A program made the translations under genes and the position numbers. The notes under the pieces were generated by a model. The model saw nothing but the letters and a program-made list of their open reading frames with translations. It was not told the DNA's origin and did not search any database. A DNA stretch of 62,327 bases, counting the filler, from Globobulimina sp. (lineage: Eukaryota), in NCBI GenBank assembly GCA_003354225.1. It is 37 parts of 37 records of this genome, joined end to end, with 100 filler letters (N's around TTAATTAATTAA, not from the genome) between each part and the next. Parts side by side here need not be neighbours in the genome. Positions count along the whole stretch, not along the records: positions 13,510 to 15,097 come from PIVH01014454.1; 36 more parts are not named here. One strand, given 5' to 3'. Positions within the stretch are counted from its first letter, which is position 1. Every line of letters starts with the position of its first letter. Below, in pieces: positions 13,510-14,931 of this stretch.

Positions 13510-14931
13510 GTTTTAAGTAAATTACGCGATGCAAATAACGCAAAAGATGTGCTATCAGTGATTGAACCATTAACCAAATTGGATATAAATAAAATGAAAA
13601 GAGAAATATACGCTATCCCGGCCACCCAAATGTTACATAAAATAATGTTTCACGAAACCTCCATTGCAAAAAAACAAGAGGATGCTGATAATGGCGAAGA
13701 TGATATTGTTCGCCAACAACAATTAAGATATAAGAAATCAACATCTTCTGTTTTGAATTATATTGCTACCAATAAAATAACTTCCTCTCTTGGTATGTAC
13801 CCATAAAAAGCACATCATTATGAGCCAAACTGTCACAAATATGCACCTAAAGGTACCTCATTGCTCTGTCATAGAGGGGTAACATTAAAAGAGCTGCAGA
13901 TTCATATCAATAATTTAGCAGAAAATTGCCAGTTATCAGTCAATGCGAAGAGTGGAATTGCAGACAGTACCTCGTTGCTAACCATCTGCCATAAAATAAA
14001 CAAATCATATCGTTCCACGTGTGTTGAGAGCATAGCTTTTTTAGTGATTGATGTTGATTCCTTTTTTGTCATCAATGAGAAATATAACACTGCCGTCGGT
14101 GACGAGTTATTAATGCAGATTGGCCAAGCTTTGTTTTATGCCGTTCAGGATATCCATACTCAGAAAAAGATGCAAAACGAATCAAAGTTTGAATGTTGTG
14201 AATTTTACCATGCCCAAAATAACAGATTCTTTGTCTTAATATCAGTCTCTTCGCACGAACAAGCTTTGGATTATGGACAAATTATTGTCAATATGATGCG
14301 GAATAAAACCTTTAATATTTCTGGGCACTCCATCAAGCGAAGTGTGTCAGTGTCGGTCTATTTGTATAATCCGAAGTTATCAGTGAATAATATCAAATCT
14401 AATGCGCATATCCCATTGTTTTATGCCAAGCATCACGGCAAAAACCAGGTTATTTCGTACAGTGTGGTGAAAGAGTTGCAAAATAAGAGCAGCAGCAAGG
14501 AGGTTAAGAGCAATATATGGAGCAAACAGCTTTATGATATGATCGGAGTTTATGGCAAATATTCGCACCATTTATGCAAAGTGATGACCAAACGGTTCAT
14601 AAATAATAAAGGATGTAATATCAATTGGAAAAATAAGAAAGATGGGAATAATACGATAATAATGTATTGTTTGGAAAATCGGTGTGTTGATTTGGTTGAC
14701 TTTTATTTGCGGTCTTTTATGAACAAATTGGATTTAAATATAATACGCGATGATGGCTCAAATGCATTGTTGTTGTCTATAAAATATGATTTTGATGGCG
14801 GTGTGGTGGAGAAGATTATGTGGAAAACGGATACAAAGAACAGAAATATTACAAATAAATGGAATGATAATACTGTACAATTAGCGAAAATTAAGGGATT
14901 GCATCAAATTATTAATTCATTGACGGCTTGA
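13510..14931 (+). CDS. Degenerate GGDEF-domain plus ankyrin-repeat protein, intron 13793-13852, 5'-truncated
   Basis: FLVIDVDSFFVINEKYNTAVGDELL, SVSVSV and LFYAKHHGKNQV define the GGDEF fold; C-terminal DGNNTIIMYC, DDGSNALLLS and KWNDNTVQLA ankyrin-like repeats; a 60-nt GTATGT..AG intron joins the exons in frame. Confidence 0.82.

What the first reader, a model, noticed from the sequence alone, without database searches (positions are those of the whole stretch)
13510..14931. Intron-containing eukaryotic GGDEF-ankyrin protein with a dead signature but intact GTP-contact residues
Seen: a GGDEF-fold domain fused to ankyrin-like repeats, in a gene with an in-frame 60-nt GTATGT..AG intron (13793-13852) and host-like AT content. 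The signature RxGGDEF reads HAQNNRF, while the first metal Asp (IDVD), the guanine-contacting Asn and Asp (INEKY, GDELL) and the late Lys (AKHHGKN) remain. Established: GGDEF domains are overwhelmingly bacterial, with Dictyostelium DgcA the best-known eukaryotic case. Inference: a domesticated, catalytically inactive GTP or cyclic-dinucleotide sensor, hinting at an uncharacterised nucleotide-signalling system in this protist.
Basis: partly seen in the sequence, partly recalled or inferred. Interest (0 to 1): 0.72.

Follow-up and report, generated by a model that had tools for sequence, protein, structure and literature searches.

The report
Foraminiferal dead-signature GGDEF–ankyrin gene
A real, spliced protist gene, with close relatives in foraminifera, encodes a bacterial-type GGDEF nucleotide-cyclase domain that has lost its catalytic motif but kept its guanine-nucleotide contact residues and is fused to ankyrin repeats, so it is probably a nucleotide-sensing scaffold rather than an enzyme.

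Summary
The window is 37 short contigs joined by linkers, and the finding fills one 1,588-bp piece (13510-15097). It carries a 5'-truncated gene with one 60-nt GT..AG intron (13793-13852). Contigs of four public runs join the exons across that intron, and transcriptome-derived homologues read straight across the junction. The product matches Pfam GGDEF above its cut-off. An AlphaFold model (pLDDT 92) aligns to diguanylate-cyclase domains at Z 21.7. The C-terminus is an ankyrin-repeat domain.

The gene belongs to a small, isolated family: 18 representatives among 1.84 billion proteins. Named members come only from foraminifera (Bolivina, Nonionella, Reticulomyxa). Full-length members are SAM-like–linker–GGDEF–ankyrin proteins of 598-673 aa.

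In every member with this stretch intact, RxGG(D/E)EF reads H-x-x-x-N-(R/K/Q)-F, and no RxxD inhibitory site is present. The first metal Asp, the guanine-binding Asn and Asp, and the phosphate-binding Lys are kept in the core clade.

The protein is almost certainly not a diguanylate cyclase. My best reading (about 0.5) is a non-catalytic guanine-nucleotide-binding module in a scaffold protein; ligand binding is untested. I found no paper describing it. It is a new variant of a known kind and moderately interesting.

The parts
13510..13792 (+). Exon, cut at its 5' end by the contig end. It encodes 94 residues plus the first base of a Gly codon and corresponds to residues 207-301 of the 659-aa Bolivina homologue P0158. 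It holds the conserved linker motif YAIPATQMLHKIMFHETSIAKK.
   Evidence: The frame is open from the first base. It is 65% identical (61/94) to P0158 207-300. The family profile scores 99 bits on this ORF. X4 record 22 runs 1292 nt further upstream.
13793..13852 (+). 60-nt phase-1 intron, GTATGT...AAAG, holding an in-frame TAA at 13804-13806.
   Evidence: Skipped in contigs of 4 of 4 runs laid, from 3 studies. Absent from homologous proteins. P0026 ends ..SSLGMF.., as expected from read-through of the same donor in another genomic contig (inference).
13853..14931 (+). Last exon, encoding the GGDEF-like domain, a helical linker, ankyrin repeats and the stop codon TGA (14929-14931).
   Evidence: 76% identical (272/358) to P0158 302-659 with no gap, so there is no further intron. 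Translation.
13924..14472 (+). GGDEF-fold domain (residues 24-206 of the exon-2 translation, counting T at 13855 as residue 1).
   Evidence: Pfam PF00990 41.2 bits. The model aligns to 3tvk over residues 24..206 at Z 21.7. The family profile hits DosC 4zve at E 6.5e-11.
14050..14103 (+). Retained substrate-site residues: D66 (14050-14052, equivalent to PleD D327), N74 (14074-14076, equivalent to N335) and D83 (14101-14103, equivalent to D344).
   Evidence: Alignments. A constant offset of 261 to PleD numbering fits the structural alignment range 28..203 to 290..453 of 2v0n. Residue roles are taken from passages of PMC7288161.
14167..14208 (+). Family-specific insertion of about 14 residues (K105-Y118, ..ESKFECCEFY) just before the signature, at the place where canonical domains carry the RxxD I-site.
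   Evidence: The 50 generic GGDEF rows have a 14-column gap here. Under either placement of the insertion the I-site reads QDIH or FECC, not RxxD.
14209..14229 (+). Degenerate signature H119-A-Q-N-N-R-F125 in place of R-x-G-G-(D/E)-E-F.
   Evidence: Profile alignment to DosC. In every family row where this stretch is intact the motif reads H-x-x-x-N-(R/K/Q)-F.
14428..14442 (+). K192 (equivalent to PleD K442) and K196 (equivalent to R446) within AKHHGKN.
   Evidence: Residue roles from passages of PMC7288161.
14560..14928 (+). Ankyrin-repeat domain (about three repeats).
   Evidence: Ank_2 matches residues 245-312 at 21.7 bits, below the cut-off, and passes the cut-off in homologues P0001, P0002 and P0006. 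Profile A4 hits the RNase L ankyrin domain at E 3.7e-6. The model shows helix pairs with pLDDT 97-98.
14932..15023 (+). Probable 3' untranslated region. The run contigs stop between 14984 and 15023.
   Evidence: table 8. Contigs cannot fix a transcript end, so this is approximate.

Best explanation
The piece carries most of a nuclear gene of a foraminifer or close relative. The gene belongs to a lineage-restricted family with the architecture SAM-like domain, partly disordered linker, degenerate GGDEF domain, ankyrin repeats.

The GGDEF domain was presumably acquired from bacteria long ago. It now has an intron, host codon usage and paralogues. It no longer makes c-di-GMP, because the two acidic residues of GG(D/E)EF are replaced family-wide by Asn and Arg/Lys/Gln, both glycines are lost, and the Arg before them is His.

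In the core clade the domain keeps the first metal Asp, the guanine-reading Asn and Asp, and the phosphate-binding Lys and Lys(Arg). I therefore propose that it still binds a guanine nucleotide, most simply GTP or GDP. The signature Arg may stand in for the lost metal at the phosphates. Occupancy would change how the neighbouring ankyrin repeats, and the SAM-driven oligomer, engage partner proteins. On this reading it is a nucleotide-gated scaffold and not an enzyme.

Shown here: the gene structure and splicing, the fold, the residue pattern, the family distribution and the sequence constraint. Inferred: the bacterial origin, the loss of cyclase activity, ligand binding and the output through the ankyrin and SAM domains.
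For: Gene and splicing.

Fold: Pfam 41.2 bits against a cut-off of 23.8. Model pLDDT 92. Z 21.7 to DgcZ.

Signature: H-x3-N-(R/K/Q)-F in all family rows with this stretch intact. In PleD, E370 of the signature coordinates Mg2+ and binds the alpha-phosphate, and D327, N335 and D344 are reported essential (passages of PMC7288161).

Retention: D66, N74, D83, K192 and K196 are kept in all 10 core-clade rows that cover them, at 52-76% overall identity.

Constraint: of the 38 coding differences listed between the window and run contigs, 28 are synonymous and 10 are not.

Family: it forms one clade (SH-aLRT 99) on a long branch from 50 generic GGDEF domains. There are 18 representatives at E <= 5.8e-21, then a gap to ordinary GGEEF proteins at 77 bits or less.

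Precedent: a degenerate GGDEF domain in CC3396 binds GTP as a sensor (passage of PMC7288161).

Eukaryotic residence: the other window pieces encode G-alpha, tubulin, synapsin-C, serpin, eukaryotic-type carbonic anhydrase and AP-mu. Codon-usage correlation is r = 0.68.
Against: No binding or activity data exist.

The precedent GTP sensor keeps both acidic signature residues (GEDEF; recalled). Here both are gone, so Mg-GTP binding may be weakened or lost.

D83 is Asn in the divergent members P0015 and P0024, and the region is unalignable in P0016. If the pocket is functional, that may hold only for the core clade.

The conserved pocket residues also sit in the structural core of the fold, so their retention could be structural.

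No EAL or other enzymatic output domain is present in any full-length member.

The family-invariant C45, H46, H119 and H185 suggest a different innovation, perhaps a metal site, that my model does not explain.
Confidence: 0.5

Rival explanations
1. Ligand-free pseudoenzyme. The GGDEF fold survives only as a structural or protein-interaction module between the SAM-like and ankyrin domains. The pocket is closed, for example by a salt bridge between R124 and D66.
For: Both acidic signature residues and both glycines are lost family-wide. An Arg or Lys sits where the metal would be. [quoted passage not shown] D83 is not kept in the divergent paralogues.
Against: In the core clade, N74, D83, K192 and K196 are invariant although overall identity falls to 52%. 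The side chains of the guanine-reading Asn and Asp have no obvious structural role in the fold (inference).
Confidence: 0.28
2. Receptor for cyclic dinucleotides such as bacterial c-di-GMP from prey or symbionts, or an endogenous dinucleotide. The ligand would bind in the former active-site half-pocket and signalling would run through SAM oligomerisation.
For: Guanine-contact residues are kept. Degenerate GGDEF domains are a known class of c-di-GMP receptor (passages of PMC7288161). The SAM plus ankyrin architecture resembles eukaryotic signalling scaffolds (inference).
Against: Known GGDEF-type receptors use the RxxD I-site (PelD is named as such a receptor in PMC7288161). Here that site reads QDIH or FECC and is disrupted by a 14-residue insertion. 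No evidence for cyclic dinucleotides in foraminifera turned up: 0 papers in each of three searches.
Confidence: 0.1
3. Still an enzyme. This would be a palm-domain nucleotidyl transferase, cyclase or NTPase with a non-canonical catalytic set: D66, D68, N123, and perhaps His or Cys residues.
For: D66 and D68 are invariant. A degenerate GGDEF domain (YybT) has ATPase activity (passage of PMC7288161). The strictly conserved new motif H..N(R/K/Q)F, together with C45, H46 and H185, points to selection for something specific.
Against: Two-metal chemistry in this fold needs the signature Glu (PleD E370). That residue is Asn in every member, and the next residue is basic.
Confidence: 0.1
4. Artefact: bacterial contamination of the assembly, or a decaying pseudogene.
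For: GGDEF domains are overwhelmingly bacterial. The contig is short and isolated.
Against: The intron is spliced in contigs of 4 runs. Codon usage is host-like. No protein outside the family scores above 77 bits among 1.84 billion representatives. A peptide-pattern scan of 185,579 prokaryote species genomes confirmed no relative. The frame is intact and 28 of 38 listed differences are synonymous. Orthologues reach 76% identity in a foraminiferal transcriptome set.
Confidence: 0.02

Closest known systems
Bacterial diguanylate cyclase GGDEF domains (PleD, DgcZ, DosC, WspR; PF00990)
   Same: They share the fold (Z 19-22, rmsd about 2 A over about 165 residues). They share the first metal Asp, the guanine-binding Asn and Asp, and the AK..G(R/K)N phosphate-binding helix.
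   Different: The signature reads HAQNNRF, not RxGG(D/E)EF. There is no RxxD I-site. A 14-residue insertion precedes the signature. The YGH motif is lost. The Asp of AD.ALY is His. The gene is eukaryotic with an intron, and the partner domains are SAM-like and ankyrin, not REC, PAS, GAF or EAL.
Degenerate GGDEF sensor domain of Caulobacter CC3396 (PdeA), which binds GTP and activates the adjacent EAL domain
   Same: Both are catalytically dead GGDEF domains that retain substrate-site residues, and in both the proposed role is allosteric sensing of a guanine nucleotide (passage of PMC7288161).
   Different: CC3396 keeps the acidic pair (GEDEF; recalled) and signals to an EAL domain in the same chain. 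This family has N-R at that pair and no EAL domain.
Degenerate GGDEF c-di-GMP receptors (PelD and PopA type)
   Same: Both are non-catalytic GGDEF folds used for signalling.
   Different: Those receptors bind c-di-GMP at an RxxD I-site. The site is absent here.
Dictyostelium DgcA, the known eukaryotic diguanylate cyclase (Chen and Schaap 2012; I saw only the reference entry in PMC13375341, because the paper itself is not held)
   Same: Both are GGDEF domains encoded in a protist nuclear genome.
   Different: DgcA is an active cyclase with an intact signature (recalled). This family is degenerate, comes from a different supergroup and has a different architecture. I had no DgcA sequence, so their relationship was not tested.
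Reticulomyxa filosa hypothetical protein RFI_19404 (ETO17900.1 = P0016)
   Same: It belongs to the same family (E 2.4e-41 to the profile), with a degenerate signature (GRNQF) followed by ankyrin repeats.
   Different: It is a divergent paralogue on a long branch (2.36), it is partial, and it is annotated only as hypothetical.

Membership tests
GGDEF domain superfamily (PF00990 fold) | Score above the curated profile cut-off | tested here: met
   Pfam 41.2 bits against 23.8. TIGR00254 38.7 against 37.4.
GGDEF domain superfamily (PF00990 fold) | Palm-like GGDEF fold | tested here: met
   A predicted model with pLDDT 92 aligns to 3tvk at Z 21.7, rmsd 2.2 A, 166 residues. This rests on a prediction, not a solved structure.
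Active diguanylate cyclase | GG(D/E)EF signature with the metal- and phosphate-binding acidic residue (PleD E370) | tested here: not met
   The signature reads QNNRF. It is xxN(R/K/Q)F in every family row with this stretch intact.
Active diguanylate cyclase | First metal Asp (PleD D327) and guanine-binding Asn and Asp (N335, D344) | tested here: met
   D66, N74 and D83 align to these positions. Roles from PMC7288161.
Active diguanylate cyclase | Synthesis of c-di-GMP from GTP | not testable with these tools
   Needs an enzyme assay.
GGDEF I-site c-di-GMP receptors (PelD and PopA type) | RxxD motif just upstream of the signature | tested here: not met
   The site reads QDIH or FECC, depending on where the 14-residue insertion is placed. 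No family member has RxxD there.
GTP-sensing degenerate GGDEF (CC3396 type) | Degenerate signature with the GTP-contact residues retained | tested here: inconclusive
   The base and phosphate contacts are kept, but both acidic signature residues are lost. Binding is untested.
GTP-sensing degenerate GGDEF (CC3396 type) | Adjacent EAL output domain | tested here: not met
   Pfam finds no EAL domain in the window protein or in the full-length homologues P0003, P0005, P0007, P0015, P0158 and P0292.
Ankyrin repeat domain | Profile match to ankyrin repeats | tested here: met
   The window protein scores 21.7 bits against a cut-off of 27.3, which is below it. Homologues P0001, P0002 and P0006 score 27.4-29.0. 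Family C-terminal profile A4 hits the RNase L and KANK2 ankyrin domains at E 3.7e-6 and 2.4e-4.
SAM domain (N-terminus of full-length family members, outside the window) | Profile match to SAM_1 or SAM_2 | tested here: inconclusive
   SAM_2 scores 21.0 bits in P0003 and P0007 (cut-off 20.5), 20.0 in P0015, 18.2 in P0292 and 15.0 in P0158. In the P0158 model residues 1-90 are helical with pLDDT about 58-87.

The most novel reading that the evidence does not exclude
Foraminifera carry their own GGDEF-derived receptor family. In this reading the SAM–GGDEF*–ankyrin proteins bind a guanine nucleotide or a cyclic dinucleotide, possibly c-di-GMP released by bacterial prey or symbionts. The ligand would sit in a remodelled, metal-independent pocket formed by the new H..N-R-F motif and perhaps a Cys/His metal site. 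The signal would pass through SAM oligomerisation and ankyrin-bound partners. That would be a second, independent eukaryotic adoption of the GGDEF fold, and a STING-independent route for sensing nucleotide messengers.
Probability: 0.12. Interest if true: 0.85.

Novelty: new variant of a known kind. Interest (0 to 1): 0.56.

Why it matters
GGDEF domains are a hallmark of bacterial c-di-GMP signalling. A 2010 analysis called them 'entirely absent in eukaryotes' (passage of PMC2904730), and the accepted exception is Dictyostelium DgcA.

This finding is a conserved, intron-bearing, multi-paralogue GGDEF family in foraminifera, with a eukaryote-style SAM and ankyrin architecture. The catalytic motif is uniformly rewritten, not randomly decayed. 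The fold was therefore adopted and repurposed in a second eukaryotic lineage.

If the domain binds a nucleotide, it gives a handle on nucleotide signalling in a large and poorly studied protist group. It would also be a natural example of how a cyclase becomes a sensor.

If it binds nothing, it is still a clean case of pseudoenzyme domestication after gene transfer. In either case the claim rests on sequence and predicted structure only.

Tried and rejected
- Whole-genome search for paralogues and for EAL, HD-GYP or PilZ partners: no genome is held for this window. A six-frame profile scan of the window found only the two exons of this gene.
- Peptide-pattern scans for related loci: genome contigs gave 73 pattern matches and 0 confirmed. 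Metagenome contigs gave 593 pattern matches and 0 confirmed. These scans rest on a few peptides and are weak evidence of absence.
- RNA evidence: no RNA holder is listed for the stretch. The runs laid are 'RNA?' or of unknown kind and are kept as contigs, so they show the joined form but not that it is RNA, nor transcript ends or expression level.
- ESM Atlas: the best clusters score 0.80, are all bacterial GGDEF and fall below the level the tool treats as evidence. It added nothing.
- Earlier findings of this scan: nothing by place, by words or by sequence.
- Organism identification through the tubulin ORF: the ORF turned out to be a divergent tubulin (34-38% identity to alpha-tubulins) and gave no named close relative.
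- Reassigned stop codon (TAA read as a residue) as an alternative to the intron: rejected, because the run contigs and the homologues lack all 20 codons.
- Literature: 'GGDEF' + 'foraminifera' gave 0 papers. 'Reticulomyxa' + 'diguanylate' gave 0. 'c-di-GMP' + 'foraminifer' gave 0. 'GGDEF' + 'Rhizaria' gave 1, which is unrelated. 'GGDEF domain' + 'eukaryotic genomes' + 'horizontal gene transfer' gave 11, none on eukaryotic GGDEF genes judging by title and abstract. The library lacks most subscription journals. Two papers I asked for, a c-di-GMP review and Chen and Schaap 2012, are not held.
- Bacterial donor: the tree shows no supported bacterial sister group, so no donor can be named.
- Complex prediction: not run, because the report claims no specific protein-protein contact.
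Full report
**What the window is.** The 62,327-base window is not one locus. It is 37 pieces of 1585-1589 bp, sorted by length and joined by N..TTAATTAATTAA..N linkers. It therefore looks like a string of short contigs from a fragmented assembly. The finding occupies one whole piece, 13510-15097 (1588 bp, GC 0.338), so no genomic neighbourhood can be read. Other pieces encode plainly eukaryotic proteins: G-alpha, synapsin ATP-binding domain, serpin, eukaryotic-type carbonic anhydrase, tubulin and the AP medium subunit. 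No whole genome is held for the window.

**Gene structure.**
- One frame is open from the first base of the piece to TGA at 14929-14931. It is interrupted only by TAA at 13804-13806.
- That stop lies in a 60-nt stretch, 13793-13852, which starts GTATGT and ends AG.
- I laid contigs of four public runs from three studies on the piece. All four join the flanks across this stretch.
- X4 has 0-1 other letters. Its joint is GT..AG, and its 2290-nt record runs 1292 nt beyond the piece's 5' end.
- X1-X3 are about 2-3% divergent. Their junction codon is GGC where the window's spliced form gives GGT, which is a synonymous change.
- None of these runs is on record as RNA. Strictly, the contigs show that the joined form exists.
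- Proteins from transcriptome sets agree. P0158 (Bolivina argentea, EukProt, 659 aa) is 65% identical to the first exon and 76% (272/358, no gap) to the second. It is contiguous over the junction.
- P0002, P0003, P0005 and P0292 also read ..LG|TSLLC...
- P0026 ends ..SSLGMF.., as expected if the same donor is read through in another genomic contig (inference).
- The gapless alignment to P0158 rules out further introns in the last exon.
- The gene lacks about 206 N-terminal residues because the contig ends.

**Is it at home in this genome?**
- GC and codon usage fit the other genes of the window. The RSCU correlation is 0.68, against 0.52-0.87 for nine of the ten other genes.
- Of the 38 coding differences listed between the window and the run contigs, 28 are synonymous and 10 are not. 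Another 15 differences were not shown by the tool.
- A profile search of 1.84 billion representative proteins gave 18 family representatives at E <= 5.8e-21. Ordinary GGEEF proteins followed at 77 bits or less. P0019 is a large generic ankyrin protein and I did not count it.
- A peptide-pattern scan of 185,579 prokaryote species genomes confirmed no relative.
- Bacterial contamination is effectively excluded.

**The domains.**
- Pfam GGDEF scores 41.2 bits (E 1.8e-10, cut-off 23.8). TIGR00254 scores 38.7 (cut-off 37.4).
- An AlphaFold2 model built on a 71-row alignment has mean pLDDT 92.0 and pTM 0.79.
- Foldseek puts PleD and DgcZ first (E 3e-9; TM 0.80-0.88 normalised to isolated GGDEF domains).
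- VIA-align gives Z 21.7, rmsd 2.2 A over 166 residues to 3tvk, covering model residues 24-206.
- Ank_2 is below the cut-off in the window protein (21.7 against 27.3). It passes in P0001, P0002 and P0006.
- A profile of the C-terminal part hits the ankyrin domains of RNase L (E 3.7e-6) and KANK2 (E 2.4e-4).
- Full-length members (P0003, P0005, P0007, P0158, P0292; 598-673 aa) add an N-terminal helical domain. Its SAM_2 scores straddle the cut-off: 21.0, 18.2 and 15.0 bits against 20.5.
- After that domain comes a long linker that the model leaves partly disordered.
- No member has an EAL, HD or other enzymatic domain.

**Residue pattern.**
- Residues are numbered from T at 13855. The profile alignment to DosC and the 71-row alignment place H119-A-Q-N-N-R-F125 opposite R-x-G-G-(D/E)-E-F.
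- Every family row where this stretch is intact reads H-x-x-x-N-(R/K/Q)-F. The variants are QNNRF, ENNRF, KDNRF, SNNRF, GKNRF, EGNRF, GGNRF, QGNRF, ENNKF, DNNRF, KGNRF, ERNRF, SGNRF and GRNQF.
- P0008 and P0020 are frame-broken around this stretch. I left them out of that statement.
- A family-specific 14-residue insertion precedes the motif. The RxxD I-site is absent under either placement of that insertion (QDIH or FECC).
- Retained residues are D66 and D68 (IDVD), N74, G82-D83, and K192 and K196 (AKHHGKN).
- With a constant offset of 261 these residues are PleD D327, N335 and D344. With an offset of 250 they are K442 and R446. Both offsets agree with the structural alignment ranges.
- A review (passages of PMC7288161) states the roles in PleD. 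E370, D327 and the I328 main chain hold the two Mg2+ ions. D344 and N335 bind guanine. E370, K442, R446 and the main chain of 330-332 bind the phosphates. D327, N335 and D344 are essential.
- The family has therefore lost exactly the signature's metal and alpha-phosphate ligand. In the core clade it has kept the rest.
- In the divergent members P0015 and P0024, D83 is Asn. P0016 is not alignable there.
- Family-invariant C45, H46, H119 and H185 replace canonical polar or charged residues. This is unexplained.

**Family and origin.**
- Named members are from Bolivina argentea and Nonionella stella (EukProt) and from Reticulomyxa filosa (ETO17900.1, 'hypothetical protein'). The rest come from unnamed metagenome or run assemblies.
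- I built a tree of the GGDEF region from 14 family rows and 50 generic top hits. Family fragments under 90 residues, or lacking the domain, were left out.
- The 50 generic hits are presumed bacterial. Only 3 of the 10 clusters I looked up carry organism names, and all three are bacterial MAGs.
- The family forms one clade (SH-aLRT 99) on a long branch (0.59 + 0.46). It has a core clade of 10 rows (97) and divergent lineages P0015, P0023 and P0016+P0024. No bacterial sister group is supported.
- Bolivina has at least two core paralogues, P0003 and P0158.
- The simplest history is one old transfer from a bacterium into the foraminiferal lineage, followed by intron gain, fusion to eukaryotic modules, loss of catalysis and duplication. 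That history is inferred.

**Mechanism.**
- The protein is almost certainly not a diguanylate cyclase.
- I rate a non-catalytic guanine-nucleotide-binding module that gates a SAM and ankyrin scaffold at about 0.5.
- I rate a ligand-free scaffold at about 0.28, a cyclic-dinucleotide receptor at about 0.1 and a non-canonical enzyme at about 0.1.
- The evidence against the main reading is listed in its own section. The heaviest points are the loss of both acidic signature residues and the complete lack of biochemical data.

**Literature.**
- I found no paper on GGDEF or c-di-GMP in foraminifera or Rhizaria.
- A 2010 paper states that the GGDEF domain is 'entirely absent in eukaryotes' (passage).
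- A 2025 review cites Chen and Schaap 2012 for c-di-GMP 'only occasionally introduced in eukaryotes' (passage).
- The searched library omits most subscription journals. Domain databases may already list these proteins without comment, so novelty means 'not described in what I could search'.

**Verdict.** This is a new variant of a known kind: a degenerate GGDEF domain in a eukaryote-specific architecture with a rewritten, conserved signature. Interest is 0.56.

Noticed in passing
window 1-62327: The window is 37 unrelated contigs of 1585-1589 bp, sorted by length and joined by 100-base N..TTAATTAATTAA..N linkers. Adjacency between pieces therefore means nothing.
   Followed up: yes
window 30762-31973 (+): A tubulin-fold ORF (Pfam Tubulin 141 bits) is only 34-38% identical to the alpha-tubulins that are its best full-length hits. 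It is 67% identical to one EukProt fragment. It looks like a divergent tubulin paralogue.
   Followed up: partly
window 59611-60315 (+): The adaptor-complex medium-subunit ORF has GC3 0.61, and its codon-usage correlation with the other genes of the window is 0.00. It may come from another organism in the assembly or be an unusually biased gene.
   Followed up: no
window 20262-23537: Two pieces have higher GC (0.44-0.47). One 529-aa frame is open across a whole piece, several overlapping long ORFs lie on both strands, and Pfam finds nothing.
   Followed up: no
window 13987-13992, 14209-14211, 14407-14409 (residues C45, H46, H119, H185): Four Cys/His residues are nearly invariant in the family. 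They replace canonical residues of the GGDEF fold: the N-terminal ..NR motif, the Arg before GGDEF, and the Asp of AD.ALY. They might form a metal site. I could not read model coordinates to check their proximity.
   Followed up: no
window 14560-14928: The best solved-structure hit of the ankyrin part is the ankyrin domain of RNase L (E 3.7e-6). That domain is the 2-5A-binding part of RNase L (recalled). The resemblance is probably generic to ankyrin repeats, but it is curious next to a nucleotide-cyclase fold.
   Followed up: no
P0008 (Nonionella stella, EukProt): One transcript-derived family member is frame-shifted just inside the signature (..EFYHCGK then unrelated sequence). It may be an assembly error or an aberrant transcript.
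   Followed up: no
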